The notes under the pieces: generated by a model | The model's database searches: none | The model's input: only the letters and a program-made list of their open reading frames with translations | Told to the model about the DNA's origin: nothing | Shown here: piece by piece, positions 8,503-64,000 of the stretch | Layout of the letters: each line of letters begins with the position of its first letter | Numbering within the stretch: the first letter of the stretch is position 1 | Made by a program: the position numbers and the translations under genes | DNA from: Rhizaria sp. SCN 62-66 | Lineage: Eukaryota | DNA length: 64,000 nt | Assembly (NCBI GenBank): GCA_001724265.1 | Contig: MEDY01000055.1 | Span: forward strand, 1-64,000 | Reading direction: 5' to 3'

Positions 8503-10873
8503 TCAATCAGCCCCGGCGTCGGCGTCCGCGAGCGCCTGTGCGTTGGCAACGATGGCCTCGGCGAACTCGCTCGCCACGGCGTCCATGTCTGCGTCGCTGG
8601 CGGTCAACAAAGCGGTCACAGACTCGACGTCAACTGCAGTGGCACCAGCGGCACCACCAGCCACACCACCGAAACTATTGCTGCGACCATAAATACTGTC
8701 CATATTGTCATTATTCACGCCGTCGTCGCCGTTAGCGGCGCTGCTGAGCTGTTCGTTTTCGCTCTCTGCAATGGCGGCGGCGGCGGCGGCGAGGTCCTCA
8801 GGCGACAGCGAGGCCAGCAGAGCAACCACGTCCGTCTCTGTCTCCGTCTCAGACCCAGAGACAGACTGTGAGCCTGAGGTCGAGTCGACGTGCAAGTGGA
8901 GGAATTCAGCGTCTGCGTCTGCGTCTGCGTCAGAGTCGAGGAGCAGCGACATGAGGTCGATATTATCGCCGAACACGTCACTGTCATCGCCCCCACCATC
9001 GCCATTGTACACAGTCTCTGACGTCACCGTGTACGTCTCCACGGTGTTGCCGTCGGAGTTGCGATCGGTGCTCACAGTCTCTGTGCGGCTCTGTGAGTAA
9101 CCGACACCACTCTCAGTGCCGCGCACCTGCTGCTGTTGCTCACTCTCTTGCTGACTCTTTTCGCGGTTACTCACCATCGCGCCAAATCCAGCGCCCAACA
9201 GCTCAAACATGGCTTCTTCGCTCATATCTTCCAAATCATCGCCGAATACAGCAAACTCATCGTCGCTTTCAGACTCAGCCGTCGTGTCGGTGGCTTGACC
9301 CTTGGCCTTTTTGGGTCCCATAGAGGCAAACAAAGCGCGCGCTAATGCGTCAGCCTCTTCGTCGCTCATCTCATCACTCTCACCGTCAGAGACAGTGTTA
9401 CTTTCAATGTCACTGTCATCAACACTCGCATTGGCCATGTTGCTACGGTTCACACTCGTGGAAGCGTTGCCGTCATTGCCGGCGCTGTTCATTTTCGTGT
9501 CGTTCATCTACATCGGAACACCGCCGTCCACCCCATATCCCTCACTCTCCTCATACGCTATCCCGTCAGCGTTGCCATCGCCATTGGTTTTATCACTGAA
9601 GTTGTCACCGTCACCCGCACCGGCAGCGTTCCCGCGGCCCGTGAGCGCCTCCGGCCCGCCCATGGCGAGCACGTCGCGCCACAGCTCCTCCAGCGCGTCC
9701 CCGCCCTCCCCGCGGGCCGCCTTGACGTCTGCGGCGAAGCCGGCGCCGGCGCGGCGGGTGGCGATCGCGCCAGAGCCGTCGAGGTCCTGCGTGACCGAGG
9801 CGGACAGCGACGGGGACGAAGCGGGTGAGGAGAGGTCGTCGAGCAGCAGCGAGGAGTAAAGGCCGAGCACGACGGCCAGGCGGTCGAAGGCGGGCAGGGT
9901 GCCGTCTGCGAGTGGGGCGAGGTAAGGCAACGTTAGTTTCAGAGGGTAAACATAAACATAGTTGACGTGGGTCAGTGAAGAGAGAGTCAAGAAAAACTGA
10001 GAAAACGATTTAAAAAGTCAATATTAACATAATAGCTAAAACCCCGGATAAATTCACCTCATCAAATTGGTTTGTAAAGGTATAGCAAAGCTATATGACG
10101 ATTAAGTGTGTTATGTACGGTATGGCGTTGATGCGTACCGTCCTCTGGCGTGATGTAGATGTCCTTGTCTGAAAGCCCAATAAAGTGGTCAAACAGCGGC
10201 GCGGGCAGAAGGTGCTCGACGCGGATGCTGCTGCACGAGGCTAGGATGACGCAGTGAAAGCGTAAGAACGGGGACAGCGCCTACAAACGTGCAAAATAGA
10301 AAAAGACACGCATTGGTTCACATAATATAGACACATACGGGGTCAGCACAGAGGTATAACAAAGAAGGAGCATAAAAAAATTAGTATATATGAGATTCAC
10401 ATTGTTTCGTTACGTTTGTGACGTACCGCGACGGCGGAGCGTGCGGGCTGGACCGCGGTGTCGTTGAGCCAGGGAAAGGGCTCGGGCCAGCCCCAAACAA
10501 AAGGCTCCTTGACGCCGTGGCGGTACAGCGGGTCCGCGAACGGCGGCGTGACCATGTACGCGAACGAGTCCTGCGGGTTGCCAGTCTCCGAGGGCGTGAT
10601 GGTCTCGTTGTCGTTGGTGGTGTGGGCGAGCACGATCACCAGCGTGTCAGTCGGCAGATTCAGCAAGTCGCTCTCGGTGGGGCCGTAGAGGACGTGGGGC
10701 GCTTCGAAGTCGGGGTAAAACTTAAGAGCCTTGGTGATGGGAGTGATGTCCAGATCAAGGTCGCCCTCCTCGCCGAGGACGGCGATCACGGGCCGAAACG
10801 GGTCGCCCAAGGAAGCGGGCAGCAACGCGAGGAGCACCGCTGCACACAACAGCGCGTACAAGGATACGCGCAT
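8503..10873 (-). CDS. Secreted protein of unknown function with acidic D/E/S-rich C-terminal half; exons 10873-10427, 10280-10139, 9905-8503; one in-frame TAG (9508-9510)
   Basis: Signal peptide 'MRVSLYALLCAAVLLALLPASLG'; phase-consistent introns. The coding-like acidic frame continues 334 codons past the TAG to a TGA. Confidence 0.6.
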
Positions 10874-11381
10874 CACCTGGAGAGATATTATATAAGGGGC
10901 ACATGTGAAACAAATATAAGCACAAGAAACCGCATGTTAAATCCCGATTGACGATCAAATTGTGGTGAGGCCCAAGTGAAAATCATGTGCTACCCCCATG
11001 GTGTCACCACTCACGAACGGCTCGCTCAGCCTAAAGTTGCTTTCCGCAGTCACAGCGCGATAGAGACATTTCAGAGCGCACATAACGGGGTATCCGTAAG
11101 TTGAACTAAAGTATGTTGTATGTAATCTCACGCATAATTCCGCGGAGTGCATGTTTTGTTTGCGACAGCGCGCTTCTAGTGCTCGTCCCACCGCCAAGAC
11201 TCGGTCCCCACTCCTTGCATGTCCACACTAGCACAGCGTCTTTCGACACCACACCAGCACACACACACAGACAAGCGAGTCCCGCCGCCTCGACCGACGC
11301 CGACAATGCTCCGTCAAAGCCTCACGCCGTAGTTTCTCTTCATCCTCACCCAACCAATTCACTTTTCATCGTGCAGACATC

Positions 11382-13338: not shown

Positions 13339-13407
<69 letters not shown>

Positions 13408-26280: not shown

Positions 26281-29200
26281 TTACTTCCAGTAGGACGCGA
26301 ATGAGTGGATCTTGTCGTTGACAACGGTCAGGAACGCGCCCAGCGATTCGTCAATCTTGCCCAAGATGTAGTGCGAAGCCTCCTCGTCGGTAAGCGCGAG
26401 CTGGAAGTTGTCCTGGACCTTAGAGATATGCGTCTCGGGCGCGTCCATCATGTTGGGGATGCCGGCGTCGGCCATGAGCGTCAGCAGCGTGATGATCAGG
26501 TTCGCGTGCTTGCGCAGGATGTTGAACGCCAGACAGCAGTAGTGACGGAAGTCCCGGTAGTGTGCAGACTGCGCGCCGCCCATGGCCTCGAACATCTGGC
26601 GGCTGAACTTCATCGGCGGCGGTCCCGGCTTGGGGTCCTTGCCGAAGATGAAGCCGAAGTCGATGTGGAACATGTGCCCGTCGGTCGTGATCAGGATGTT
26701 CTCCAGGTGGCGGTCGCCGATGCCGAGCAGATAGGTCATCACGCAGTAGCCCGCGCAGCTCTTGACAAACGTGTTGAGTACCTCGGCCTGGTCCTTCTGC
26801 TTCGGGTTGTGGTGACAGAAGAACTTCTTGAGGTCTTTGCTGTGCTCGGCCTCGATGTCCTGGATCGTGTGCGAGTTGGCCACGAACTCGACAAAGCCGT
26901 CGTCGGGCGAGGTCGCGATCACGCGGTAGGGCGTCAGCCGCAGGTCCAGCAAGTGCGTCTTGAGCAGGCGGTCCATCAGGCCGAATAGCTAGTGTTGAGA
27001 GAGAAAAGAAGGAGAGAGAGAGATACAGACAATGATTGGTGAGTTACACGTTCCTCAGAGTGCTTGATTTTGATTCAAGAGTTTTAAGAATCGTGAGGGA
27101 ATCGAAATGACAACATATCACGTACCTGTAGAATGAGCTGATCCTGGCGCAAGTCGTCGCCGGACTTGAATATGACCTTGTATTCGCCACCGGGCGCGAC
27201 GACCTGCCGGCCCAAGTGCGCGTCGCCCTTGGGCTCGCACCCCAGCGTCGCAGACATCCCCATCGGCAGCGGCCCCGGCGGCGGCGCGCTGAACGTCACC
27301 ACCGGGTCCGCCGCCACCGCGGCGGCCTCGGCGGCGGCGGCGGCGGCGGCCGCGGCGTCGTCATCGTCGCCGGCCGAGGCCGTCTCAGCGGCCCCGGCGG
27401 TGGATGCGCTGGGGGACGTGTTGCTGCCGGAGAGATTCGCGATAAAGCGCGACGTGGCACTGGCGAACATGGCCGAGAAGGTGCGCCCGGCGGAGCGCCC
27501 GCTGTTGCCGTTGCCGTCCGCGCCGTCGGCCGCAGAGGCGGTGCCCACGGTGCGGTGCGTCATCAGGAATGGCGCTTTGGCGGACTTGAACACCGTGCAA
27601 CTCGTCGCGACTGAAAGAAATAAAGAAAGACACAATAAAAATAAAATAAATTCAGTTAGGACGGACATACAGGTATTTCCTAAGTAAGTTAAAACATAAT
27701 GAAATAATTTGTTGCTAAGTAGAGTCAAAAAACGAACCTGTGCTTGCGAGCTGGATCTGCGGAAATAGCGGGAGCGCGATGGGCGGGCTCATCACGGCCA
27801 GGTCCTGGAAGTTGTCCACGGGCGCCTCGAGCGCGGGGTCCGCGCCCGCGGCGGGCATCGGCAGCGACTCGTCGCGCGCCAGCAGCCCGCGCAGCAGCGG
27901 GATCTTCTGCGCCGCCTTGGACTTGCTCGACACGGCGCGCGAGAGGTCGTTCATGCGCTTCAGGTAGCGTGTCTGCGCCAGCAGCTCGGCGTGCCATGCG
28001 GGCCGCACGGCCAGCAGCGTCGCCATAAAGCGCTCCAGCACGCGCTTGAACTCGAGCCCGCGGCTGCGGTCGTAACCCTCGGTGACGAGGAACCAGTAGA
28101 GCGCGTTGGCCAGGTACCCGCAGCGGGCGCAGCGCTCGATCAGCAGCGTCGCGAGCAGCCCCGTGTGCATGGGACCCGCGCGCTCGTAGCGCAGCGCCTG
28201 CACCAGCTGCAGCAGGAATGTGTCGATGTCCTCGTCCGAGGCCGACTCGCGCAGCTGCTTCACCGCGAAGTGCCACACCTGGGAGGGCAGCGACGGCCGC
28301 AGCAGCGCCAGCGCGCTCGCGGGGGAGATGCGCGCCCACGTGGGCAGCACGCGCAGCGCCTCCTCGGCCTCGGCGCGGTCCGACCACGCGACGGCGCCCA
28401 GATACGGCGCCAGCGCGGCCGGGTCGGCCGCCAGGTAGGCGCCGTTGCGGACCATGGCCATGCGCTGGGGCAGCGTGAGCCGCGTGCGCAGCGGCTGTCG
28501 CAGCACCTCGGCGATGGCGGCCAGGTCGCCGGCCGACGGCGGCGGCGCGGGCAGCCCCGCGGCGAGCGCCAGTACCGCCGTCAGTGCGGCCGAGGTGGGC
28601 AGCGGACACGCGGCGTCAGGGTCGTACGTCACCAGGCGGCGGTGGCGGTCCGTCACCGGCAGCACCGATGGGATGCGCTGCGGCGCCTCGTTGTGGTGAT
28701 ACACCACAGGGAAGCGGAACGGCGCAGAGTCGATCGTCAGCGTCAGCGGCGGCGCGTGAGAGAAGTGCGCTGCTGGGTTATATAAAGAAGTTAGGCCGCT
28801 GCCGTCCGCGGCGGAAGTCAGGCCGCCCCCGTAGAGCGCGACGGCGTCGCGGGGCACGGCGCCCGCGCCCTCTGGCGGCGCCCAGTGCGTGCACGCGAGC
28901 GCGACGGGCGCGGGAGCCAGCGCGGCGAGCCGCTCCTGGGCCTCGGTCTCGGCGAAGCGCGCGGCCGCGAGCGCCGACAGCCAGTCGGAGCCGGGCGCGA
29001 GCGCCGCGGCGCCGGCGGCGGGCGCGACGGGCGCGGCGGGCCGGCGCGCGGTGCGGGGCTCGGCGTCGAGCGCGCCCAGCAGCGCCGCGTGGAGGGACTG
29101 CTCCAGCGCGGGCAGCGCCGAGGCCGCCGAGGACAAAGACAGCGGCGCGGGCGCCAGGGCCGAGCTGAGGAAGCGCGGTGTGGGGTCGCCACCCGGCAGT

Positions 29201-30746
29201 CCGCCGCAGACGGCGGCGGCGCTGTTGCTCCCGTTGCAACCGTTGTGGAGTACAAGAGCGCGCGAGACGCCGGTGCTGCCCCCGCTCTCGGCCCCGTCGC
29301 CGTAGCCGCCGCCGTCGCGGTTGCCGTTGTTGGCCGCGACGGGGCGCGTGGGCACACCGAGCAGCAGCGAGGCCGTGAGAGCGGCGTCGGCGGGGGCGAA
29401 CCGCGAGGCGCGGGCCAGCACCCGCCCAATGGCCTCGAGATCCGCGCCCGCCACGGGGGGCTCGGGCCCGGTGACGTGGGCGCTGCTGAAAGTCGCGATC
29501 AGCGCCTCGTCGGCCTCGGCATCGGGCTCGGTCTTGGACTCGGCCTCGGCGCCGGCGTCGGCGTCGATCGCGGAGCCAGCTTCGGAGTTCGCCAAAGTCT
29601 TGACACTCTTCGCGTTGTCTTTGTTGTTGTAGTTGTTGTTGTTGTTGTTGTTGTTGTTAGCGGCAGCGTAGTGCGCGGCGGCTGCGGCCGAGACCATCGC
29701 GATTTCCTTCGCCAACAGCGCATTCTGGGCCGCCACGTCGCCCGCAAGCACTGCGGCGTCCAGGTCGGGGTGCGCAAAGCGGTACGCGCCGTAGCGCGAC
29801 AGCGACACGCTGGGCTCGGCCTCCGCGTCGCCAACACCGTTGACGCCGCCACTGTTGCCGCTTCCACCGTCGCCGCTCCAGTCACCAGAGCCAGCAGCGG
29901 CGGCAGCGGCGGCGGCGCTGCTGCTGCTGTTGCTGTTGCTGCTGGCGACGGGCTTCTGCCCCGCCGCGCGCGCGAGCCCAAGCGCGAGCGAGGACGCTGC
30001 GGGCGCGCGCTGCAAGTGGTCGCGGGCCTCGTCGCGCACGCCCAGTGCGGCCGCGCGCTGCGGGGGCCTGTGGGGCGTGGCCGAGTCGACACTGCCGTCA
30101 CCGACGACACCCGGAGCAAGCGCGAGGCGGCGCGTGCCCAGCTTGAGGCGCCCGTTGCGGTCGAAGAAGGGCAGGCAGGTCCCGCCGACGGGGCGGACGC
30201 GCGGCGCCCACAGGCCCTCGTCGTAGAGCGTGGCGGGGAAGTCGAGGAAGACGTCTGGGTCGGGCCGCAGCGCGCGGGGCGGGACCGGATGCGCGACCTC
30301 GTAGACAGTGAGCGCAAGCGTGGACGACGGTGTGAGCTCGCGGAAGCAGACGGGGAAGGTGACCCACTCGTCGAAGGCGACGTCGAGCGACGACGCGAAA
30401 GTGCGCGGGGTCGTCTGGACCGGGACGCCGACGGGCATGCCGCTGTTGTGAATCTGCGCGACAACGAAGAGCTCGGTGCCGCGCAGGGGCAGCGCGGCGG
30501 CGTCGCGGTGGGTCGCCAGAAAGGCCGCGTCAGGCAGCCATTTGCCAGCCAGAGATGTGCTGCGGAGGAGCAACAGGCAGGCAATCACAAAGGACAACAT
30601 ATGGTGAGAGAAGGTTGCGAGAAACAGTTGATGGAGACAAAGATATGCTTGGCATGAGCATAGTTTCAATGCGAACGAGGAACGTACATCTTGACCTTGA
30701 CGGGGAGGTCGAGGTCCGAGAGACAGAAGAAGTGCTGCAGCGACAT
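26281..30746 (-). CDS. VPS34: Class III phosphatidylinositol 3-kinase Vps34; exons 30746-30688, 30559-27738, 27610-27126, 26988-26281
   Basis: N-terminus 'FFCLSDLDLPVKVKI', C2 'FDEWVTFPVCFREL', PIK 'FLLQLVQALRYE', kinase 'IFKSGDDLRQDQLILQ', 'SCAGYCVMTYLLGIGDRHLEN', 'FHIDFGFI', C-terminal 'IHSFASYWK'. All introns are phase-consistent. Ends in TAA. Confidence 0.95.
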
Positions 30747-31313
30747 GGTGGTTCAGTTCAGTGGTCGCTGCTTCTCGTCACTCCTGCGGACAGAAGCCGC
30801 ACGCACAAGGCGGCAAGCGCGTCGGCGCGCGGGGCGGGGAAAGAGCGGGGCGCGCTGTGGCAGCGCTGGCAGGCGGGGGCAGTGGCCTGGTGGCGCGGGG
30901 TGAGGTGGGAGGGAAGGGGCTAAGACTGTGGGGCAGTGGAGTGAGGTGAGGGATCAAACAAGTGGATATGGTGAGTGTCTGCCGCCATGAGCATAAATCA
31001 AAATTAAGATCATACACAAAACACTCGCAAATAATATATATTACGCGGATGCCGCAACTGACAGATGTTTCGCTTCGCACGAGCTCGTGATAAAGAACGC
31101 GAGACGTCGACGGCGGAAGCTTGAGGTCGAGGTCGAAGCCAAACCGAACGCGTGTCAATTTGACCCTGAAAGTCACTATGTCTTCCGACAATAGAGAGTT
31201 TACCGACATAACCAATTTTTCAACGCAGGTTTGACTTCATTAATAAAACTGCATCGATGCAGCAGGATATATCTGATGCGCAACCTCTCTTGTAAGTCAA
31301 GCACCTCCTCGAT

Positions 31314-36677
<5,364 letters not shown>

Positions 36678-47378: not shown

Positions 47379-47859
47379 TTACGCCTTGACGCCGTAGGTC
47401 TTGGCAGCCTCGTTGGCGAGGTTGATGTACTGGGCCTTGGCCTCGTCCTGGGACTTGCCCTTGTTGGCCTCCCAAGCGTCGTACTTGCTACGGGCCTCGA
47501 TCTGCACAGCCCAGGGCTGGGAGATGTTGACGTCGCCCTGTAACGCACCAGAGTGACGGAGAGAGAAAAACAAGCACATGTCATGAAAGTGGACGCGAAC
47601 GAGCAAACAAACACAAAAAGGGAAGCGATATAGAAGAATCAAGAAAATGAGCAAAAGTATGGCACTACTAAAGCAACGTGTCGCGAAGAAAGTTGCACAA
47701 ACCGGAAAAGCGCGCGCGAGTTTCGAGAGAAGGGGCGATGGGACGTACGACAGTGGCCTGCTTGTAGAGACCGTAGATGGCAAGGAGCTCATCGTTGGAG
47801 GGCTTGGAGTTAAGGTTGTTGACAAGGGCAACGGCCTCCTCGAAGGTAGAAGCGGACAT
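47379..47859 (-). CDS. ACBP: Acyl-CoA-binding protein; exons 47859-47749, 47537-47379
   Basis: 'FEEAV...[26 protein letters not shown]...KYDAWEANKGKSQDEAKAQYI'. Ends in TAA. Confidence 0.95.
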
Positions 47860-48301: not shown

Positions 48302-51102
48302 ATGAGTAGTGAACAGGTTGATACTACGGGTGATGCCACCCATGCCGCGTCTACTGGTACGTTTGATATCGATCCATCCCTCCAAAGTTGTGCTGTGTCC
48401 GAGCTTTGCTGCGCACACCGCCTGTCCCACCTTTCCTTGCCTCCCCAGGACACCACATGAATGTTTTTCACTCCCAGTTCAAATGCTCACATACGCCACA
48501 ACCTCATCATTAACGCCAACATCTTTCTGCGAATATCCCCCCTCATTCTGCATCTCAGCCGAGGACACTAAGCAGCAGGACCAGCCGCAGGAGCAACAAC
48601 AGCAGGAGAAGTCTTCTGAGGCCGCCCCTGCTCCGTCCACTGCGTCCACCACGGCCATCCCCGACGCGTCCGCGCTCGAGGGCCGCAAGCAGGTGCGCGT
48701 GTACGTGCCCGAGTCGTCCCGCTCTGACTGCGACTGGGCCGCGCTCTTCGCGCAGGCCAAGGCCGGCGTCGAGGCCGCCTCCAAGGCCGCGCTCTACGTC
48801 GGCTCCGACACCGAGAACAACGGCGCCGTGTACGCGCTGCTGGTTGCGCCCGCCGGCGAGGACGATGCTGCGGCCGACGCCGTGGTGGCCGCCGCCAAGG
48901 CCGAGGTGGAGACGCTGTTCTCAGATCCCGTTAAGCGCGCCACCCTCACCGCCGCAGCGCTCGCCGCCTCCGCCACGAACAGCAGCAACAATGGCGACGG
49001 CGCGATTGAGCAGGACACCAAGCGCTCCCGCCCCGCAGGCGAGTCTGCGGACAACGCGGACGAGCCCCTCGTGGAGCTGCCGCTCGGGTTGTACGCAGCT
49101 GACGCCAAGGATACCCGCGCCTCAACCTTCTTTAAGCGCAACGACGACAACTCCGCCAACGCGGGCGGCGCCGTCGGCTACGGCCAGGCGGGCGCGGGCG
49201 GGTACTCGTCCATGCCCGCGGGCCCCGGCTACGATCGTCCTCACGGCAACAGCGCCGTGCACGACAACGCCGACTTCATCGAGATCCCCAACGACAAGGT
49301 CGGCATGGTCATTGGTCGCAAGGGCGAGACGATCCACGTGCTCCAGTCCATGACGGGCGCGCGCATCACAATCGCGCGCGAGTGCGACCCGGGCTCGCAG
49401 ATGCGCAAGGTGAACATCTCGGGCAGCCCCGACGCCGTGGCCCACGCCAAGTCCGAGATCAACAAAGTCATCGCGCGCGCCGCTCTCACGCCCTCGGGCC
49501 CCGACGGCGCCTCTGCGGGCCCACTCGCGCCCGCGCCCGGCAGCGACACCGTCAAGATCAACGTCCCGAACCAGTTCGTGGGCATCCTCATCGGCCGCCA
49601 GGGCGAGACGATCCGCGCGCTCCAGGTCAAGTCCTCCTGCACCGTCCAGATCCAGCGCGAGGTACGTTCCACAGAACAAGATTTCGCAGCGTATTCACGC
49701 ATTTCTTGATTTTCTTCGTCGATATGTTAATAGCTCATACTAGAGCCTCGTTTTTGATCAGCGCACTTACATCTATATTGCTTTTTGTTCTCATTTGTTA
49801 CTTGTTCCCCGACTTAGGCCGACATGCCCCCCGGTTCCACGTCGCGCGAGGTCACGCTTATTGGCCTGCCCGACGCCATCGCCACCGCGCGCCACGAGAT
49901 TGCGCTGCTGGTGCAGAACGCCGAGAACCCCGGCTCGGTGCCCGCGGCGCAGCTTGTGTCGCACCTGGGTCGCCGCGAGGACCGCACCATGACGATGGAG
50001 GTCCCCCACCAGGTACGAAGATCGAGATATATACGCTTCTATTGGGTGATATTAACGCAAATGTGTCATATTTAGTGATCGAATCTTCTTGTATATCTAA
50101 GTCATTTTGTTTTGTTTCTGAATCTCACGAATCTTCATTGCATTGTACTCCGCCTCGTTTCCGTCCTCTCACCCCAGGCCGTCGCGCTGGTCATCGGCAA
50201 GGGCGGCGAGAGCATCCGCACGATTCAGCAGCAGACGGGCGTGCGCGTGCAGGTCAGCAAGGACCAGACGACGCCCCTGCGCGGCGTCACGCTTACGGGC
50301 CCCTCGATGGACGCCCTGCAGCGCGCGCGCGCCATGGTCGACGGCTACGTGTCGCAGTCCTACCAGCAGTCGGGCGGCGGCCACGGCGGGCCCGGCGGCT
50401 ACGGCGGCCCCGGCCAGCAGGGCGGCTACGGCGCCGCCCCCCGCGGCGGCTACCAGGGCCGCGGCGGGCCCGGCGGCTACGGCGGCCCACAGGGCGGCTA
50501 CGGCGGCCAAGCCGGCTACCAGGTATGTTTGCGCAACAAGATCTACACAACGAGATTGATTGAATTTAGCACATCTAATACTGCATATATATATGCGTGT
50601 TTACTATACGTCCCCTCTAGACGAAGCTATACTGAATTTGTATTTCTAATTTCATCTCACCACATCTGGTTCTTCTCTTTCTTGCTTTGCTCGTTCATGA
50701 TGACGACGATCATGACAACCACAGGCCGGCTACCAGCAAGGCGGCTACCAGCAGGGCGGCTACCCGCCCCAGGGCGGCTACCAGCAGGGCGCCTACGGTC
50801 AGGCCGCCTACGCCCAGCAGGGCTACGCGGCGCAGGGCGCCTACAACCAGTACCCCACGCAGGCCGCCGGCAGCTACCCGGGCGCGCAGGGCGGCTACGA
50901 CCCCTACGCGCAGCAGCAGGCCGCCTACGGCCAGCAGCAGGGTGGCTACAGCGCGGCCGCGGCCGGCGCGGGCGCGGTTGCGGGCACTGGTGCCACCGCG
51001 GGCGGCTACAACGTGGCCGAGCTGGAGGCGTACTACGTCGGCCAGGGCTACACCCAGGAGCAGGCGCGTTCCTTTGCCAAGCAGTACACCGACGCCAAGT
51101 AA
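48302..51102 (+). CDS. KH-domain RNA-binding protein (FUBP/KSRP-like) with G/Y/Q-rich tail; exons 48302-48356, 48559-49661, 49818-50012, 50178-50522, 50725-51102
   Basis: Three KH motifs 'VGMVIGRKGETI', 'VGILIGRQGETI', 'VALVIGKGGESI'; four phase-consistent introns; tail of 'GGYQQ' repeats and 'ELEAYYVGQGY'. Ends in TAA. Confidence 0.85.
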
Positions 51103-51751: not shown

Positions 51752-52514
51752 AAAAGTCATGTCACATTCAAACCATCCTTGTGTATGTCACTTGCCTTGT
51801 CGTTGCCACTGCCATGGTTGATATAGACTTCAATGTCTCCGTCTTGTTTCTACCTATCGTCGATGTCACTGCCCTTGTTTGTTTCTATCTCGTCGATGTT
51901 TTTATTTCAATGCGACATTACGCAAGCGCTCTCTTGCACACTCGCGACTTTCTTGTCCGCTCACTCTTTCCGTAGCCCACAGTCGCTGTCTGCAGTCACC
52001 GCCAACGGTCATTGCGGCCAGCCTCTGCTCGCACGGTCATGCGCTTCCGTGCTGCGCTGGGTACGCTTGCACTCACTGCTGCTCACCTCACTTCATTTCA
52101 CTTCATTGCGCTATGCTTTGACTGATAGACTGACTGATTGATCTTGCAATGCTGTGCTCGTATTTTGTGCCGCGCGCTTGTAATGCTTGCTTTTATGTAT
52201 GCGATGGATACGTTGTGTGATGATACTGCTGATGCTTGTGATGCATGCTGAATCGAAAGTGATGATACGATGCGAACTTGATGATGATGACGATGATTAT
52301 GATGATACGATAATGATGATGATGTTTACGACTGATGCTGATGATAATTTTTAATGGTGTTTATGCTACGTGTGTCTTGTTACATACAACTTATTCATTT
52401 CACAGCTGTATTATTGAAAATCAGCATTCGACTGCGATTGTTCATAGCATTTTATCATACTGTAGCATTTTATCGTCGTGTTGCCAATTAATAACACCAC
52501 CTTGAATTAGCAGT

Positions 52515-54337
52515 TTACTCAACGTGCTTCGTACTTCCAACTTCCTTGTTATCACAGCTGCTCATTGCACAGCTCTTATCGCCATTCATATCACACTTGC
52601 TATTGTTGTCGCTGTTCCCTGAGCAGTCATGATCGTTTCGCTTGCTCATTGCCGCACTGGTCACTTCCTCGACCTCGTCCCTGATCTGCTCGCGCGTCGC
52701 CGCATAGCCGAACTTGCCACCGCCGTAAAACGTCAGGTACGGCGGGAAGTTCGGCCTCGTCGGCGCAAACTGCGCGCTGGCCCAGTAGCCCGCGCGCACC
52801 CACGCGCACTGGACGTGGGCAAAGATGGTCAGGTGGCCGGGGGTCCCGAGCCCGGCCAGAGCGGCGAGCGCGCCCGCAGTCGCTGCGTCACCCTCAACCG
52901 CACTCTCTGCGCCAGCGCTCTCTGCGCCATTGCTCTCAGCAGCGGCGGCGGCGGTGGCGGGAACCGCGACCCCTGCTGCGTTTGCGCGCGGCGCGGGGAT
53001 GATGTGCGCCACGGTGCACACGAGGTGCGCCACGCAGTCCGCCACGGCGACGTCTCCGTGCGCGCGCGACGCCGCCACGGCCTCGCGTACCGACGCGGGC
53101 GCGTTGGACAGGGCCTGCGCGCGCCGGCGGGCGGCAGCGGCGGCCAGCGCAGCCGCCTTAGAGGCCTCGGCGACGGCGGCCTTGGCGGCGGCCGCGGCAA
53201 CCTTGCCAGCAGCAGCCTTGGCAGCCGCGACGGCAGCCTTGGCCTAGGCGTCTTCAGTCGAGGCGAGGGCGACTGAGGAATCAGTAGCAGTCGCTTCAAC
53301 GCTGTCACCAACGCTAGCAGTGTTGCCCGTGAACTGAGCGAGGCAAGGGCGCTTGGCGACGTGCTCAGGCGTGGCGTCGTCTTTGTCGCCACAGCGATGC
53401 GCCTGAGTCGTGACGCTGGCACTGGCACTGGTGCTTGCGCCAGCACTGGAGCCAGCAGTTCCAACAGTGGAGCTCTCTAAGGTAGAGGCAGCGGTGCCTT
53501 CACGGGTCTGCTTTTGCTTGCTATTCTGATGCTGTTTGTCGCTACCCTTGCTGTTGATGATGCTGTTGTTGTTGCTCGCCACAGCGGGCAGAGGCGCGTC
53601 TTCCCAACCCGGAACGCATGTCGCGATGCCCAGGCGGGCCAGCTTTGGCAGTGAAATGACATCGCCCTCGTTGTTCACAGTCTCCTCAGCCGAGGTGCTT
53701 GCATCAGAGCTACTTGCTGTTGCTTCAGTCGTCGCTGTCGCAGTGCGAGCGCTATTCGCAGGGGCGGGCTGGGGGCCGTATGTGTCGAAGCCGGAGCACT
53801 TGCCGATGCTCTTAACAGTCTCTTCCATGCCCATGACGGGGATGTTGAGCACTAAGCACGATGCAAATACAATACAAATCAACGATGAGGCAGAGACATC
53901 AGTAGGTTAGAGAAAGCACGTGCAATGTCGGAGTATGAAAGCGCAAGATGAGGCTTCGATTATAACGTACCGAAGCGGCGTGTTTTCTGCAGCAATGTTG
54001 CGGAGAATCGTGTCTCATTCATGGACATGATGAATGCACCGGCGACGTTTGTGGTAGGCGTGAGCCAGCTGATAGTCATCGCGTTGCACTTGCGCTGCGG
54101 GCCAGCAGTCAGGGGCTCGCTCGTCGTCAGCACGCACACGGGGTTCGTGTACAGCATGCGCGCGTAGTGCGACGGCGCAAGTAGCACCGGCTCGCCGTAC
54201 GGGTGCTTGTTAAGGACCAACGTGGGCAGGACCAAGATCTTCTTAGCAGAAGTTGTGACTATCTTGCTGTCCGCAGTGTGCTGAGTGGTCGCTGTGGGGT
54301 CCGCGGAGACGGGTGTAGTCTGTTCCTGTTGCGACAT
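52515..54337 (-). CDS. Flavin reductase-like FMN-binding split-barrel protein; exons 54337-53971, 53851-52515; one in-frame TAG (53244-53246)
   Basis: N-half 'RMLYTNPVCVLTT...NAMTISWLTP...FVLNIPV...IGKCSG'. C-half 'AVADCVAHLVCTV...GHLTIFAHV..AWVR..YW...PPYLTFYGGGKFG' is in the same frame after the TAG. Ends in TAA. Confidence 0.8.
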
Positions 54338-57467: not shown

Positions 57468-58122
57468 ATGCCTGAGTCGGAACCCCGCCCAGTCGTGGTA
57501 ATCTATGCTAAACTTGGAATTTTGATTGAAGCGTGTTGTTGTGTGTTTTATCGTGGTATGGTTGTGGTTGTTATTGTTGCGCTCACTTGTACATGTGTAG
57601 ATCAGCAGAAAGAGCACAGTGACTAAACCTTGTCCCGAATGCGACCGAGACACCGCACGCACTCAGTGCGACTCAAGTTATTGATGCTGCAGCTGCTATA
57701 TGCTATACGCTTCGCCTTTTTGTTTGTTCTTTTCAATCTTATGTTCTGCTGCTGCTGTCAGCTCTTTTGCTGTCTGCGAGCTTTTGTTTTTGTTTGTGCT
57801 ACCCCATTTCTTTTGATCGTTCTTTCAATACTAGCTTTCACATGATACGTATTCCAATAAGGTAACCATGTATTACCCGTTATACACAAGATTTATCCTA
57901 CCATCGCTCGATTTTAACTTTCATTCAATGTTTTCAGTGGTGACCAGTGAGAGTGACTGGTGACTAGGGCTGGGGGCGGTGACGAGGGCTGTCTTTGAAG
58001 AACGATATCTCGTTCAAAGCTCCGTCTATAGACGTGCACTTTAAACCAAGGGATTTCGACGTACTTTTATTTAAGTTCGGTAAATACACACTTCACTGGC
58101 AGCTAGCTACCTTCGTGGAGCG

Positions 58123-61100
58123 ATGCCTCCTGTGAGTGCTACCCCCAAGGTAGACGCCATGCTTGGGGGCATCACTGCTAATGGACTCCCCACCTACCCA
58201 GGACGTTTTCACGTCATTGAGAAGGTTGGATACGGTATGTCATACATTTTTACGGCCACTTGCGCTACCATCTTATCCACCACAGCTGTATACATATGCT
58301 CCATCTGACTGCGTGATCCTTAATCGCGATCTTCCCGCCTTGCCCTGTGTCGATATTGTTCACTACACAGGCTCATTCAGCGAAGTCTTCAAAGCCGTTC
58401 CGCTCGACAACGACGGAAACCCCGACTTTTCTCAGCCATTTGTCGCGCTCAAGCGCCTCGTCCCGCTGTCGACGCCACAGGACGTGCTCAACGAGGTCCG
58501 CCTGCTGCGCTGCCTCGGCGGCACGGACCACATCATCAAGCTGCTGGACGTCGATTTCTGCCCGGAGACGCGCCGCATCACGCTCGTGCTTGAGTACGCG
58601 CCGCATGAGAGCTTTAAGGTCTGTCGTTACATCCCAGTACTTCCATATACTCTCAGAACGCTCTTTTATGACCAAGATTCGATCTCACCCCAGCCTATTT
58701 ATACTTTTCTGTTGACAGGTCTTTTTCATGCGCATGCTCCTCACGGACATCATGCACTACATGCGCGCGCTACTAACCGCGCTTAAGCGTCTCCACAGCT
58801 TCCGCATTATCCACCGTGACCTCAAGCCGGCCAACTTCCTCCACCTGCCGGGCACTCAGCACTACCACCTCGTCGACCTCGGGCTCGCCTCGGTCCAGCA
58901 AGACGCGCTCCTGGACGCCCCCGACGGCGCGGACGACGCGAACCCGCTCTCCGCGCTCGCGTCCTTGGCGGCGGAGGCTAACAGCGGATACCAGCAACAG
59001 CGGCGTCTGGCTGGGCTCAGGAACCCGCTGCAACAGCAGCATTAGCATCAGCAGCAGATGCAGCGGCAACAGCAGCAGGGGCGTCGGCTGAGCACTGCGG
59101 ACGCGATTAGCGAATGGTTTTCATCCCACATGGGCCCGCTTGCGGCTGCCAACGGCCTACCCCTGCCGCCGTCAGCCGTGGACACACCTAATGACTCTGC
59201 TTTGAGCTATGCTTCTCAGGGCGGCAGCGCTAAGGCAAAGGGCAAGATGGCTGGTAAGACCACAGACACCACTGCTGGGAAGCATAGGTTGACGCCGGTG
59301 CCACCGCCCGCTACTGCGCCAGACCGCTGTGCCAGCGCCGCTGGTGCTGCTAATAGAGCGAAGCACGCGCTCACCGATCACGTCGACATCACCACGGACA
59401 TCGATGCCAGTAATGTGGTCGGTAAGAGTAAACAGAAGTCCGTGAACCCGTTCAAGATTAACCCCGCGTCTGCTAGCACAACGGACGCCGTGACGACGCC
59501 AGATACTGCAGTTGCTACACTTGCGCCTGCGAAGCCGGTCCGTGCGTCAGCTCTTGACATCCTCCTCCAAAACACACCTGCGCCGACACCAGCTCAGACA
59601 AAGCCGAGCTCGGCGGCAGCCGTGAAAACTGCGGTGAATCGTGGTGCTGCTGCGAAGTCGAACGACATCCCCGGGCACGCGTACGGCTCCGCGTCTGAGA
59701 ACATGCCGGCCAGCGGTGGTGATGCTCCGATGAATATAGCGCTGCATGTTTCGCATGACCACACTGGAAATGCGATCACTGGCAATGACGCCCCTAAGGC
59801 TGCCAGCGAGAACCCTTACGCGACCTCGTTCGTGTCTGCGCTGGCGCAGAGCGGGCGGTACTCTGCGCAGCGCGAGGCCGAACGCACGCGGCAGCTGCTG
59901 CGCAGGCAGCAGGAACGGGACGACCTGCGCCGACAGCAGCTGCTCGATCAGCAACAGCTTTAGCAAGAGGAACAGACAAGACTTGCAGAGATTGCCACGG
60001 CTGAAGCTGCATCTAGCGCCGCTGTCCTAACTATCGCGACTGCGATGACCGCCAATATGACTGCCTCTTTGACTGTATCGACAACATATGCTGCATTGTC
60101 TCCGGCAGAGACGCCCTTGCCTGCGAGTCCACAGGCCGACCGGGGCATGGCCGGAGGTGACGATGATGCGGACTACGACGCGGTCGAGACCAAAGACGCC
60201 GATGGTGGCTATGACGTGGGATATGATGACCACAACACGTACGACGCTGGGTGGGGCGACTGGGACTATGGGGAGAACAACTACAACAACGACGACAACG
60301 CCGACAACGCCGACGCCAACGATGCCGATGTCAATGACGCTGACGGCAACTCGTCCGCCCGGTCACAGAAAAGCCGTCGCATGCAAGATATCGACCACGA
60401 TATCGGGGCGGGCAACGACAGCAGCGACGACCACAGCGATGACGGCGACGACGGCAACGGCGGCGACCCGATCCTTCGCCGAGTCTATCATCGTTCTTCC
60501 GCCATCTCTGGTGCTCCTCGGAACGCGCTTGCTTCTTTTGCCTCACCGCTTGAGGGCCAAGTGGAGTTTCGATACGGCAACGTCGAGGTGCGGTCAGCGC
60601 ACACAGCGCAACGACCTCCGCGGCGGAGCGCCGGCGCCGGCGAGACGGTGGGTGGACTGCGCGCGTTTGTCAAGGCCCATACCAACGGTGCTGCGAGCGA
60701 GACTGACGCCGGCGACGGCTCTGACGCGGCCGACAGTGCCCACGTTGGCAGCGACCGTGGCAGCTACCGTGACCGTGGTCGCGACCGTGCGGGCGGTGAA
60801 TCTCGCCGCGATCGCCGCGACCGGGACCAGAACGTTGACCGTGAACGCCATGCGCGCGACCGTGACGGCGGTGGCGAGGACGGTTACACTGGCCGTAGGG
60901 ACAATGCAGCCGACAAGGCTACCCTGCAGCATAGCGTGACGACAACGCTGGACGCAGATTCTGTGCAACAACAAGGTCACACTGTTCATAGCGTCCATAG
61001 CAGCCAGTTCGTCGAAGACGATGACCGTGACAGGGACGCGGGCTCGGAGGCAGTCTACGATCCGTCACTTTTCCCTAAATCTTCTCAGACTGCCGCGCAA

Positions 61101-64000
61101 GTCAGCGCAAGCGTAAACTCAAACACTCGCACTTTGCCTCTCCACAACCTGAATGTGAGCAGCCCTGGTGCTGTGAGGGTGCAGAGCGCAGACGACGATT
61201 ACGACTACGACGACGACCGTGACGCAGTCAAAATATCCATCTGCAGTAGTGGAAACAGCAGCACGCGGAGCCTTGCTAACAATCTTCGCAGTTGTCAAGT
61301 CATTGCAAACAGCCTTCACGACGATGACGATGACAACGACGATGACCGCGACGCTGATCTAGATGCCTTGATTTCGAGCTTCGGCAGAGATGGTGAGAAA
61401 AAAGTCGCGGCTCAAGATGGTATGACACCGCCTGCAATGAGCCAGTCTCTTAGCGCCGGTCTGAGCCAGATCCGTTCTCTTAGTTTGAGTCAGGGTCACA
61501 CCTCTCTTAGTCAGCAGCACCTGTCTCAGCCGCGTCACGGCGGTGGTGCTGCATTTGTCGACACGCATCTGCCCGTGCACGCGCCCCCATTCTCGCAGTC
61601 GCCCGTCGTGTTCCCATCACTGGCGTCCCACACGAACTCCACGACCGTCACGCCCACGACACGATCGCGCCGTGTTCCGTCCGCCGCTGCGGCTGCGCCT
61701 GCCGCGGCGCAGGATCTGCGCAGCTCGCCGCGCCGTGCGAGCATGCGCGCCGACACGAACGTCGGCGTGCAGCGCGCTAATCTGCTGACCAGCGCGCATG
61801 TCATTCTTGGCGATAGCGGAAGCGAAAGCGACACGCCACACTTCGCAGCGTCGCCAGTTAGCCTCAGGTCACTGGGAAACAGCAACGCCGGCAGCAGTGG
61901 CGGCAGACGCACGGCGAGCCCAGCCACTCGCGCGAGCACGCGCAGGACTACCAACCTGAGTCCCAACAGACCGAGAGCGTCTGGCGGCACCCGAACGCGC
62001 GCCAAGGGTCCGTTGCCCCCGCCGCCGCCCCCGCTGCCGCCGCCGCAGCCGCCACAGCCGCACCCGAGCGCGTCCCCGCCCCTGCCCCACCCTTCGCACA
62101 ACCACAACTATCCCGCCGCGCCCGGCCTCCGCGCGGGCACTGGCGCTGGCAGCGGCGGCGCTGGCGGCGCTAGCGGCGGGGTTGGCAGCGGCGGCAACGA
62201 CGTGGCCCGCCGCGCGGCCGCGTCCGCCACCGCGGCGGGCGGCTCGCTGTCGCACCAGTCGCGGCGCTGGATGGCCGCGGTTACGGGCCGCACGTCGCTG
62301 GCCGAGATCGCGCCGGTGGCGCCCTTCAGCGCCCACAGCAACCGAGCAGTCGACGGCTACAGTGGCGGCGGAGGACAGGGGCTGCATAAGCGATCGCGTA
62401 TCGCCGCATCTGGAGGCGCACTGTCTGCGGCGACAACCTCAATGCCGGCCTCGCTATCAAACGTCGCAGCCGGCGCATCTCTGCACGGCCGGAACGTCAC
62501 CGCGCCCGCGACGCTGCCCACCCGCAGCAGCAGCAGCAGCACTGCGGTTGGCGGCCCTACTGTGAGCGCAAGCAACGCGGGCATGGGCGCTGGCAGCGCC
62601 GAGGCCGGCAGCAAGGCCGCCGCGCTGCGCCAGCGACTGGAGAGCCTCAGCGCCAACCGCAGCGTTACTGCGAACCACCACAACAACAACAGCAGCAACG
62701 CCAACAGCGCTGGCGGCGGGCCCGGGCACGTCCGCGGTGTTGGCAGCATCAGCAACGCTGGCAGCATGCCACCACCCGCGCATCCGCCTGCACATCACTT
62801 CTTCCGCGCCGCGACTGTATCTGCGACCACAGCGTATCTGTCCGCGGGCGCCGTTGCGGCCGGCCAGTCCTCGAACCGGGACTCGTCCTCCGCCTCAGAC
62901 TCCGGCGCCGCCGCCGGTGCCGCAGCCGCCGTCCCGCGCTCGGGTTCGTCGGCCTTCCATTCCGGCGCGGCCGGCGTTGTCGTCACTGGGACTGGCGTCG
63001 CCGCGCGCCCCGCGGCCCGCGTCCGGGCTGAGGTGGCCTTCGCGGCGGCCACGGCGGCGGCGGCGGGCGCGCGCGGCACGCACACGTACGCCGGCGCCGC
63101 GCTCGTGGCCATGGGCCGCGGCGACGTCGAAGTCCCCATTCACCACCACCCCAGGCAGCAGTACCAGCCCAGGCCGCCGGCGGGGGCGCCGCGGAAGTTC
63201 GTGCCTCCGCAGCAGCAGAACCAGGGCCAGCAGCAGCCGGCGGGCCGGGGCAGCCGCGGCAGGCCGCAGGTCGTGGCCGCAGTTGCGCGCGCCGGCACGC
63301 GGGGCTTCCGCGCGCCAGAGGTGCTGATGCGCGAGAGTGCGGTACGTGTGTATTATATTGTTGTGTGTATTCTTTAACTTAATCGACCCTGAACATCTGT
63401 TTCTCTGCATACTTCCCCATATTTCCTGCTAACTTCGCTGACATGATTTTCCGTGTTTTTTTTTTTTTTTTTTTTTTTAAGACGCAAACTGTTGGACTCG
63501 ACACCTGGAGTGCTGGAACAATCCTTCTCACACTGCTTTGCCGCAGGTACCCCCTGTCCGTGGCAAACGAAGACATTGTATCTCAGGCAGAGCTGATTCG
63601 GTTGATGGGGACACCAATCGACCAGGACCCTTCGCACTACATCCTCAGCGACCGCGCTGTGAGCACCGAGTCCGTTCCCGAGACTATGGACGGCGCGCGC
63701 GGCCTCTGCGCCCGTCTGAACCCTTCCGTGCGATGGCCCGAGCCCGTGCTTGCGCTACTGGACGGTCTGCTTGCCGTTGACCCGCGCGAGCGACTGTCGG
63801 CCGCTGCCGCGCTGGAACTGCCGTTCTTCGACCCCGCGCAGTTCGACGCTAAGGCGTGGGACGACGCAGCATTCCCGGGCTGTGTGTCGCTGACCGAGGG
63901 CGGGAAAGGCGCGCCGCTGCCCGGGGGACCGATGCCTCTGGGCAGCGCCGAGGATGGCTTCGTGGTGGCAGGCTGCGCGGAGTGGAGCGATGACGAGTGA
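58123..64000 (+). CDS. CDC7: Cell division cycle 7 kinase with giant kinase insert 2; exons 58123-58234, 58371-58618, 58719-63341, 63482-64000; two in-frame TAGs (59043, 59961)
   Basis: 'KVGYGSFSEVFKA', 'VALKRL', 'YMRALL.AL', 'IIHRDLKPANFL', 'LVDLGLA', CDC7 signature 'RAGTRGFRAPEVL', 'QTVGLDTWSAG'. Ends in TGA at 63998-64000. Confidence 0.9.

What the first reader, a model, noticed from the sequence alone, without database searches (positions are those of the whole stretch)
8503..64000. Variant nuclear genetic code: UAG is a sense codon (most likely Gln) while UAA and UGA remain stops
Seen: five in-frame TAGs interrupt otherwise continuous frames in four unrelated genes: 9508(-), 32385(+, FAM135-like), 53244(-, flavin reductase), 59043 and 59961(+, CDC7). 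In three genes conserved blocks lie both upstream and downstream of the TAG in the same frame, and I see no donor/pyrimidine-tract pair that would splice it out. I saw no premature in-frame TAA or TGA in conserved regions. The 19 gene ends I could define are 10 TAA, 9 TGA and 0 TAG. Contexts 'QQQH*HQQQMQRQQQQ' and 'DQQQL*QEEQ' point to Gln (CAG/TAG). Known: UAA and UAG are usually reassigned together; uncoupled UAG reassignment is rare (UAG=Gln in the fornicate Iotanema, UAG=Leu in an uncultured rhizarian, some ciliates). Inference: this GC-rich protist may be an independent case needing a tRNA-Gln(CUA) and an eRF1 that poorly recognises UAG.
Basis: partly seen in the sequence, partly recalled or inferred. 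Interest (0 to 1): 0.95.

Follow-up and report, generated by a model that had tools for sequence, protein, structure and literature searches.

The report
Stop codon TAG probably read as sense
An uncultured, GC-rich wastewater protist carries TAG "stop" codons inside four otherwise intact genes and never ends a gene with TAG, so it probably reads TAG as an amino acid, a rare kind of genetic-code change that this one DNA fragment cannot prove.

Summary
Five in-frame TAGs (9508-9510 minus, 32385, 53244-53246 minus, 59043, 59961) interrupt frames that have no TAA or TGA over 3,220 codons. The other five frames of the same regions hold 398 stops. None lies in the AT-rich sequence typical of this organism's introns. 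Three TAGs sit between profile-verified halves of one domain: two in CDC7 and one in a FAM135-like protein. Three TAGs recur in independent DNA assemblies. All 20 gene ends I could define are TGA (11) or TAA (9), giving P about 0.01.

Best reading, 0.6: UAG is translated, and UAA and UGA terminate.

Not shown: the amino acid, because all five sites are low-complexity and cannot be aligned. Also not shown are a tRNA(CUA), the eRF1 sequence, and RNA across the TAGs.

Against:
- "Only TAG" is what random nonsense mutation would give here (about 70% TAG).
- One other assembly carries a frame-shifting 26-nt deletion in the CDC7 insert.
- TAG is only about 1% of CAG+CAA+TAG codons.

If true, this is a new member of a known kind (Iotanema, rhizarian exLh, phyllopharyngean ciliates).

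The parts
9508..9510 (-). In-frame TAG, codon 170 of the 504-codon frame 8503-10017 (acidic low-complexity protein of no known family). The next codon is ATG.
   Evidence: Frame 0 has 0 TAA/TGA, while the other frames have 8-41 stops each. No independent assembly was checked at this site.
32385..32387 (+). In-frame TAG, codon 364 of the first exon frame 31296-33398 of a FAM135-like gene. It lies in an insert of about 270 residues between two conserved blocks.
   Evidence: Eleven of 11 homologues match query residues 94-159 and 298-646 within one protein. Public gene calls end and restart at this TAG.
53244..53246 (-). In-frame TAG, codon 221 of frame 52515-53906, the second exon of a putative flavin-reductase-like gene. 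It sits in an Ala/Ser-rich insert.
   Evidence: X3 DNA contig 53166-54069 has 0 other letters. The upstream exon 53960-54403 hits PF01613 positions 4-57 at E 2.6e-4. The downstream half is unconfirmed.
59043..59045 (+). In-frame TAG in a polyQ/His stretch of the CDC7 kinase insert.
   Evidence: X3 contig 57403-59496 has 0 other letters. L001 is identical over 56464-59719.
59961..59963 (+). In-frame TAG in a Q/E/L-rich stretch of the CDC7 kinase insert.
   Evidence: X3 contig 59762-62055 has 0 other letters apart from the 26-nt gap.
58716..63377 (+). CDC7 exon frame of 1,553 codons. It runs from kinase subdomains VIb-VII (HRDLKPANFL, DLGLA), through an insert of about 1,400 residues, to GTRGFRAPEVL, all in one frame. 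An AT-rich intron (about 63351-63518) and the last kinase exon (63383-64000 frame) follow.
   Evidence: Pkinase 99-149 and 176-263; human CDC7 is the top PDB hit on both sides; 0 TAA/TGA against 19-64 stops in the other frames.
61383..61408 (+). 26 nt that are missing in the DNA contig of run X3. The deletion shifts the CDC7 frame. The first TAA in the shifted frame is at 61778.
   Evidence: tables 4 and 8.
31296..36677 (+). FAM135-like gene. The exon frames are 31296-33398, 32579-35413 and 35085-36677, the last carrying a DUF676 esterase domain. AT-rich introns lie at about 33363-33471 and 35011-35141. The gene ends in TGA.
   Evidence: (PF05057, E 1.7e-35).
26281..30777 (-). Vps34 (class III PI3K) gene. 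The TAG at 27715-27717 lies in an AT-rich intron, so it is not a TAG terminator. The gene ends in TAA.
47537..47747 (-). RNA-confirmed intron of the ACBP gene (211 nt, GTACGT..CAG, AT/pyrimidine-rich). It serves as the reference for what introns look like here.
   Evidence: table 5 (X7 and X5).
50520..50721 (+). RNA-confirmed intron of the KH-domain gene (202 nt, GTATGT..CAG, AT-rich).
   Evidence: table 8 (X7 record 27).

Best explanation
In this uncultured GC-rich eukaryote, UAG is not an effective terminator and the ribosome translates it. UAA and UGA end genes. The code would formally match NCBI table 15 if the residue is Gln.

Shown:
- Five real in-frame TAGs in four genes.
- Three of them lie between verified halves of a single conserved domain.
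- There are no TAG terminators.

Inferred:
- A tRNA with anticodon CUA, or efficient near-cognate reading by tRNA-Gln(CUG), together with an eRF1 that recognises UAG poorly.
- The residue is most likely Gln, but this is untested.

TAG is a rare codon. It makes up 5 of 464 CAG+CAA+TAG codons overall and 5 of 115 in the four genes that carry it. It is seen only in disordered inserts of weakly codon-biased genes. This fits a young or still costly reassignment.
For: 1. Open frames. Over 3,220 codons the four frames have 0 TAA/TGA and 5 TAG. The other five frames of the same DNA carry 398 stops, of which 82 (21%) are TAG. If these stretches were non-coding, five stops that are all TAG would have P about 4e-4, and the open frames themselves would not exist.

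2. Not introns. The two RNA-confirmed introns and the Cox11 intron are 150-210 nt, AT-rich and of the form GTAYGY..YAG. No segment under 50% GC lies within 300 nt of any TAG.

3. CDC7. The Pkinase profile matches 99-149 upstream and 176-263 downstream. Human CDC7 is the best PDB hit for both pieces (E 2e-10 and 1.7e-10). The GTRGFRAPE motif is in frame with the upstream part.

4. FAM135-like gene. Eleven of 11 homologues match a block before and a block after the TAG in one protein.

5. Terminators. 0 of 20 gene ends are TAG (11 TGA, 9 TAA). With a TAG share of 0.20-0.22 among stop trinucleotides in this DNA, P(0 of 20) is about 0.01.

6. The TAGs are real DNA. X3 contigs from another study cover three sites with 0 other letters. 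L001 is identical at 59043. Public gene calls break at 32385.

7. The lesions are all nonsense and none is a frameshift in the window's own alleles. This is the opposite of what neutral decay of low-complexity coding sequence should give (inference).

8. PolyA-RNA contigs of X7 splice out the known introns and cover 61561 and 62484 inside the CDC7 insert (tables 3, 5 and 8).

9. With 100-codon flanks, 9 of 10 flanks fit the in-frame codon model best, against 0 of 15 control frames of non-coding DNA. With 40-codon flanks the figure is 6 of 10.
Against: 1. Only 5 codons and 20 gene ends, from one 64-kb fragment. No genome is held.

2. None of the five TAGs falls in an alignable conserved column, so neither translation nor the residue is shown directly.

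3. 'Only TAG' is not specific. From this window's codon usage and a transition weight of 2, 70% of single-base nonsense changes give TAG, so five of five has P about 0.17.

4. The DNA contig of X3 lacks 26 nt (61383-61408) inside the CDC7 insert. This shifts the frame onto a TAA at 61778. At least one population therefore carries a disabled allele of the very gene that supplies two of the five TAGs. The three other indels seen in coding sequence are each 3 nt in total, and one more lies in a 3' UTR. Contig depth cannot tell the allele's share.

5. TAG is 10 times rarer than CAA (5 against 47). It is absent from the 20 other coding stretches, although these hold 27 CAA.

6. No tRNA gene was found in the window. 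eRF1 was not available.

7. RNA cover exactly at the TAG sites was not visible, because the table was cut.

8. The post-TAG half of the 'flavin reductase' and the whole acidic gene have no homology support.
Confidence: 0.6

Rival explanations
1. The code is standard and the TAGs are genuine nonsense alleles. They would be recent, tolerated or polymorphic loss-of-function mutations in dispensable or decaying genes, mostly CAG to TAG. Metagenome contigs, which keep one allele, would carry them along.
For: The nonsense spectrum predicts about 70% TAG (arithmetic). CDC7 carries two TAGs, and in run X3 it also carries a frame-shifting 26-nt deletion, as a young pseudogene would. All five TAGs lie in low-constraint inserts. 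Contigs drop minor alleles (note).
Against: Four of about 22 genes in a compact region would have to be hit, including a CDC7 orthologue. The window's alleles show 0 frameshifts and 0 TAA/TGA. After the first CDC7 TAG, 1,444 codons stay open up to the conserved APE motif. The same TAGs appear in every assembly seen, from several studies and years. This rival does not explain 0 of 20 TAG terminators (P about 0.01).
Confidence: 0.17
2. UAG has a dual or leaky meaning. It remains a stop in principle but is read through at these sites, either by programmed or context-dependent readthrough or by a context-dependent stop/sense code of the Condylostoma or Blastocrithidia kind.
For: TAG usage is very low. 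Two of five sites have CA after the TAG (TAG-CAT, TAG-CAA). Near-cognate reading of UAG by tRNA-Gln is known in other eukaryotes (established knowledge, not tested here).
Against: The five sites share no downstream context: the next bases are A, G, G, C and C. TAG is never used as a terminator in 20 gene ends, unlike ambiguous codes in which the reassigned codons still end genes. Readthrough of two successive stops in an essential kinase would give little product.
Confidence: 0.12
3. The TAGs never reach the ribosome. They would be removed from the mRNA by unconventional GC-rich introns or changed by RNA editing.
For: No RNA contig was shown across any TAG site (table cut). 59043 and 59961 sit in YTTAG-like strings that resemble acceptors.
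Against: The confirmed introns are AT-rich, about 200 nt, with GTAYGY donors. The TAG surroundings are GC-rich, keep the frame open for hundreds of codons on both sides, and mostly keep codon periodicity. X7 polyA-RNA contigs that splice the known introns still contain insert sequence at 61561 and 62484.
Confidence: 0.08

Closest known systems
Iotanema spirale (Fornicata): UAG = Gln, with UAA (primary) and UGA as stops (Panek et al. 2017, PMC5304391; abstract and sections 6, 8, 9 read)
   Same: UAG appears in frame while UAA and UGA terminate. UAG is a minor codon there too (about 8% of Gln codons, section 8). A tRNA-Gln(CUA) and an eRF1 change (T32G in the GTS motif) were predicted there and are predicted here as well.
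   Different: That case rests on many UAG codons at conserved Gln columns in a transcriptome. Here there are 5 codons, none alignable. This organism is aerobic (it has Cox11), GC-rich, and not a metamonad on the available evidence. TAG usage is lower (about 1% overall, about 4% in the genes that carry it).
Rhizarian exLh (Cercozoa: Sainouroidea): UAG = Leu, with UAA (56) and UGA (15) as stops (PMC5304391, section 6)
   Same: The pattern is the same: in-frame UAG only, and terminators exclusively UAA or UGA. UAG is rarest in highly expressed genes. The nearest named Vps34 sequence to this window is from an unidentified cercozoan, so the two may share a phylum.
   Different: exLh has 384 in-frame UAGs in 71 genes, mostly at conserved Leu positions. 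Here the residue is unknown and the contexts at two sites are Q-rich. A relationship to Sainouroidea was not tested.
Phyllopharyngean ciliates: UAG reassigned to Leu (three TARA taxa) or Gln (Hartmannula sinica, Trochilia petrani), with UAA the preferred stop (McGowan et al. 2024, PMC11687900; abstract read)
   Same: UAG is uncoupled from UAA. The discovery came from environmental or metagenomic assemblies. Suppressor tRNA genes are the expected mechanism.
   Different: Those are ciliates. This contig has about 200-nt introns, 56-70% GC and a long multi-gene contig, which is not what I recall of ciliate macronuclear DNA (recalled, not tested). No suppressor tRNA was found here.
NCBI translation table 15 (TAG = Gln; TAA and TGA stop)
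   Same: Read with table 15, the interrupted frames become continuous (and with TAG=Q).
   Different: A table is a formal description only. That a frame is open under it is no evidence that the organism uses it.

Membership tests
UAG-only stop-to-sense nuclear codes (Iotanema / exLh / phyllopharyngean type) | In-frame UAG inside genes whose conserved parts lie on both sides in the same frame | tested here: met
   Three of the 5 TAGs are flanked by profile-verified blocks: CDC7 twice and the FAM135-like gene once. One of 5 is half supported (flavin reductase). One of 5 has no homology.
UAG-only stop-to-sense nuclear codes (Iotanema / exLh / phyllopharyngean type) | UAG not used as a terminator; genes end in UAA or UGA | tested here: met
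   0 of 20 gene ends are TAG (11 TGA, 9 TAA). P is about 0.01 at a TAG share of 0.20. The sample is small.
UAG-only stop-to-sense nuclear codes (Iotanema / exLh / phyllopharyngean type) | UAG positions coincide with conserved columns of one amino acid in homologues | tested here: inconclusive
   All five TAGs lie in lineage-specific low-complexity inserts. The homologues found do not align there.
UAG-only stop-to-sense nuclear codes (Iotanema / exLh / phyllopharyngean type) | A tRNA able to read UAG (anticodon CUA) | tested here: inconclusive
   ARAGORN found 0 tRNA genes and Rfam gave 0 matches in the 64-kb window. The rest of the genome is not held.
UAG-only stop-to-sense nuclear codes (Iotanema / exLh / phyllopharyngean type) | eRF1 N-domain changes that weaken UAG recognition | not testable with these tools
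   No eRF1 gene lies in the window, and other contigs of the organism could not be reached.
UAG-only stop-to-sense nuclear codes (Iotanema / exLh / phyllopharyngean type) | UAG present in mature mRNA (not spliced or edited out) | tested here: inconclusive
   PolyA-RNA contigs of X7 cover insert positions 61561 and 62484 and splice the known introns. Cover at the TAG codons themselves was not shown.
Ambiguous stop/sense codes (Condylostoma, Blastocrithidia type) | The reassigned codon also terminates genes near 3' ends | tested here: not met
   0 of 20 gene ends use TAG. There is no in-frame TAA or TGA in 13,946 codons, although the frames were chosen as TAA/TGA-free.
Programmed stop-codon readthrough | A shared stimulatory context downstream of the stop | tested here: not met
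   The downstream codons are ATG, GAG, GCC, CAT and CAA, with no common motif. RNA structure was not examined.

The most novel reading that the evidence does not exclude
This is an early-stage capture of UAG in a previously unsampled GC-rich protist lineage, possibly a second, independent UAG reassignment within Cercozoa. UAG has already vanished from terminators. It is still only about 1% of its synonymous family and is confined to disordered inserts. That would be a natural snapshot of the 'unassigned, then weakly decoded' stage that codon-capture and ambiguous-intermediate models argue about.
Probability: 0.3. Interest if true: 0.8.

Novelty: new member of a known kind. Interest (0 to 1): 0.62.

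Why it matters
Nuclear codes in which UAG changes meaning while UAA stays a stop were unknown before 2017 (abstract of PMC5304391). The cases I found described are Iotanema, the rhizarian exLh and some phyllopharyngean ciliates (PMC5304391, PMC11687900).

A further case would add an independent data point on how eRF1 and tRNAs separate UAG from UAA. This one would be in an abundant wastewater protist with a GC-rich genome and very sparse UAG use. It could also show what the earliest stage of a reassignment looks like.

There is a practical consequence. Standard gene callers already split this organism's genes at TAG (P0166 and P0167), so its proteome in public databases is fragmented.

Tried and rejected
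- Whole genome: none is held.
- More contigs of the organism. The metagenome scan with the formin returned only one 3,256-nt contig identical to the window.
- tRNA and ncRNA: 0 hits.
- Post-TAG half of the 'flavin reductase': no Pfam hit at E up to 5, no PDB hit at E up to 10, and no Atlas hit. The PDB search with exon 1 gave only a chance hit.
- Dispersed repeats, or a paralogous EGF family that could have served as bait for other loci: none. The two EGF proteins share only EGF motifs.
- TAG at 27717 as a possible real terminator: rejected. It lies in a Vps34 intron between the PIK-domain exon and the kinase exons.
- TGA at 43441 as a gene end: rejected as a probable intron start (CAG|GTACGT).
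- 'Only TAG because of GC3 composition'. This holds for some antisense frames; for example 19115-23764 (+) has 15 TAG and no TAA/TGA. It does not hold for the four TAG regions, where TGA dominates the other frames.
- RNA cover at the TAG sites: not visible, because one search lists only part of the pieces. No statement is made either way.
- Earlier findings of this scan: nothing on this genome, and the word searches returned only phage, bacterial and giant-virus cases.
- Literature. Searches for a UAG reassignment in activated-sludge eukaryotes or amoebae found no description of such an organism. Supplements were not seen.
- Taxonomy. The Vps34 kinase-exon tree puts the window, on a long branch, in a 13-row set (support 98/91). 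That set also holds an unidentified cercozoan (62% identity), unnamed environmental sequences and a long-branched trypanosome. Plasmodiophora falls outside it. I treat this as a lead only.

Full report
**What the window is.** The 64-kb window is a metagenomic contig of an uncultured eukaryote. Its sequence is held by bioreactor, wastewater, activated-sludge and microbial-fuel-cell runs of seven studies. No whole genome is held. GC content is 56-70%.

Coding frames have GC3 of 0.7-0.93. Introns and intergenic DNA are AT-rich. Two introns are confirmed by spliced RNA contigs: 47537-47747 on the minus strand and 50520-50721 on the plus strand. With the Cox11 intron they share a form: 150-210 nt, GTAYGY donor, pyrimidine-rich, YAG acceptor.

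Pfam identifies these genes:
- a TBC/TLDc protein
- Vps34
- a DUF676 (FAM135-type) esterase
- Cox11
- EGF-repeat proteins
- a Rab
- a KH protein
- a formin
- a protein kinase

By eye in the translations there are also ACBP, RPL36a and a UBC-UBA enzyme.

**The observation.** Reading only TAA and TGA as stops gives long frames. Five TAGs lie inside the coding part of four of them:
- 9508-9510 (minus)
- 32385 (plus)
- 53244-53246 (minus)
- 59043 (plus)
- 59961 (plus)

Six further TAGs in such frames lie upstream of the coding signal (5' UTR or an intron) or in introns. One example is 27717, in a Vps34 intron between the PIK-domain exon and the kinase exons. Another is 42011, which is the acceptor of the Cox11 intron.

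The four interrupted frames total 3,220 codons with 0 TAA, 0 TGA and 5 TAG. The other five frames of the same DNA hold 63 TAA, 253 TGA and 82 TAG. The frames are therefore really open. In this DNA a chance stop would usually be TGA, not TAG.

No segment under 50% GC lies within 300 nt of any of the five TAGs. A codon-usage model was trained on TAG-free genes. It prefers the in-frame reading in 9 of 10 flanks of 100 codons and 6 of 10 flanks of 40 codons. It prefers it in 0 of 15 frames of non-coding controls. The signal is weak because the flanks are low-complexity.

**Are the TAGs real DNA?** DNA contigs of run X3, which belongs to a different study from the probable source run, cover three stretches without a differing letter apart from the 26-nt gap discussed below: 53166-54069, 57403-59496 and 59762-62055. 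A JGI contig (L001) is identical to 56464-59719. Public gene calls end exactly before the 32385 TAG (P0167) and restart after it (P0166, seen on 4 contigs).

Contigs keep one allele, so minor CAG alleles cannot be excluded. The 9508 site was not checked in any other assembly.

**Do the genes need to be read through?**

*CDC7.* The piece before the TAGs matches Pkinase positions 99-149. The exon after the intron at about 63351-63518 matches positions 176-263. Both pieces have human CDC7 as their best solved-structure hit, with E 2e-10 and 1.7e-10. The motif GTRGFRAPEVL closes the 1,553-codon frame. Both TAGs lie in an insert of about 1,400 residues at the place where CDC7 kinases carry an insert (the insert position is recalled, not tested).

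*FAM135-like gene.* Eleven of 11 homologues examined match a block at query residues 94-159 and a block at 298-646 within one protein. In most of them the second block begins at residue 401 or later. The TAG is residue 364. A DUF676 domain follows downstream.

*'Flavin reductase'.* The upstream exon hits PF01613 positions 4-57 at E 2.6e-4, below the curated cut-off. The post-TAG part looks like the C-terminal strands only by eye and gave no hit.

*Acidic protein at 8503-10017.* It has no family.

**Terminators.** I could define 20 gene ends: 11 TGA, 9 TAA and 0 TAG. Several are anchored by homology to the C-terminus, namely Rab (CSC), Vps34, Cox11, ACBP and RPL36a.

TAG makes up 20% of stop trinucleotides in the AT-rich non-coding DNA and 22% in the whole window. 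P(0 of 20) is therefore about 0.01.

**Codon usage.** Over 13,946 codons of 24 coding stretches there are 412 CAG, 47 CAA and 5 TAG. In the four TAG-bearing stretches the counts are 90, 20 and 5. If TAG is Gln it is a rare codon: about 1% overall and about 4% in these weakly biased genes. In Iotanema it is about 8% (PMC5304391, section 8). The 20 other stretches hold 27 CAA but no TAG.

**Evidence against, stated fully.**

1. From the codon counts and a transition weight of 2, 70% of single-base nonsense changes would give TAG (2,561 of 3,654 weighted paths). 'Five of five are TAG' therefore has P about 0.17 under simple nonsense mutation and is not evidence of specificity.

2. The X3 contig lacks 26 nt (61383-61408) inside the CDC7 insert. 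The shifted frame meets TAGs and then a TAA at 61778, so that allele is disabled under either code. The three other indels seen in coding sequence are each 3 nt in total, and one more lies in a 3' UTR. Contig depth is a per-contig mean, so the allele's share in X3 is unknown.

3. All five TAGs lie in disordered inserts, so no site tests the residue.

4. No tRNA, no eRF1, and no RNA contig shown across a TAG.

**Weighing.** A non-coding or intron reading is excluded by the open frames and their composition.

A pseudogene or nonsense-allele reading has several difficulties:
- It would need four of about 22 genes to be hit, including a CDC7 orthologue.
- All five lesions are nonsense and none is a frameshift in the window's own alleles. 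Indels should outnumber nonsense changes in low-complexity sequence (inference).
- 1,444 codons stay open after the first CDC7 TAG.
- It does not explain the missing TAG terminators.

I therefore put 0.6 on UAG being translated with UAA and UGA as the stops. The rivals are:
- tolerated nonsense alleles, 0.17
- leaky or dual-meaning UAG, 0.12
- removal at the RNA level, 0.08

**Mechanism (inferred).** As argued for Iotanema and exLh (PMC5304391, section 9), keeping UAA as a stop leaves CUA as the only anticodon for a cognate tRNA. Such a tRNA is most simply derived from tRNA-Gln(CUG) or tRNA-Leu(CAA). An eRF1 with weakened recognition of the third-position G is also expected.

Gln is favoured by three things. 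CAG to TAG is a single transition from the commonest neighbouring codon. Two of the five sites are Q-rich. Gln is also the commonest known outcome. Leu or Glu cannot be excluded.

**Who is it?** The formin's nearest relatives are only 47-51% identical. For the Vps34 kinase exon the best hits are unnamed environmental proteins and one unidentified cercozoan, at 59-63%.

In a single-gene tree the window sits on a long branch inside a 13-row set (support 98/91). That set also holds the cercozoan sequence, the unnamed environmental sequences and a long-branched trypanosome. Plasmodiophora is outside it. This is a lead towards Cercozoa, the phylum of exLh, and no more than that.

**Comparison and novelty.** The pattern matches the known UAG-only reassignments:
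- Iotanema, UAG = Gln
- rhizarian exLh, UAG = Leu, with 56 UAA and 15 UGA terminators
- phyllopharyngean ciliates, UAG = Leu or Gln

These are taken from PMC5304391 (abstract and sections 6, 8, 9) and PMC11687900 (abstract). Formally the pattern is NCBI table 15.

Three literature searches found no description of such an organism from wastewater. Supplements were closed. If confirmed, it is a new member of a known kind. It would be unusual for its GC-rich genome and very sparse UAG use.

Noticed in passing
window 51558-51760: A long (ATTC)n microsatellite interrupted by the window's only N run (51648-51663), in an AT-rich intergenic stretch. RNA and DNA contigs break here.
   Followed up: no
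window 58900-63330: The CDC7 orthologue carries an insert of about 1,400 residues of low-complexity sequence between DLGLA and GTRGFRAPE, all in one open frame. I recall no kinase insert this large.
   Followed up: partly
window 31790-31920: The (GS)n repeat of the FAM135-like gene differs in length between assemblies. The public gene call P0167 has a much shorter GS run and a different reading upstream of it.
   Followed up: partly
window 56018-57047: Run X4 holds a second, more divergent lineage. Of 13 differing letters in the formin gene, 11 fall on third codon positions, which indicates purifying selection and a usable outgroup for the TAG sites.
   Followed up: partly
window 19115-23764 (+): The antisense frame of the 2,192-residue EGF/laminin-G gene runs 1,550 codons with 15 TAG and no TAA or TGA. 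This is a pure composition effect of GC3 near 0.9. It could mimic a TAG reassignment if the strand were misjudged.
   Followed up: yes
window 43436-43447 (-): The TGA that closes the EGF-protein frame 43439-44863 directly follows CAG|GTACGT, the local donor consensus. The gene probably continues in a further exon below 43250.
   Followed up: no
window 9505-9513 (-): The TAG of the acidic-protein gene is flanked by ATG on both sides (ATG TAG ATG). Under the standard code the 334-codon downstream frame would have to start with no intergenic space.
   Followed up: no
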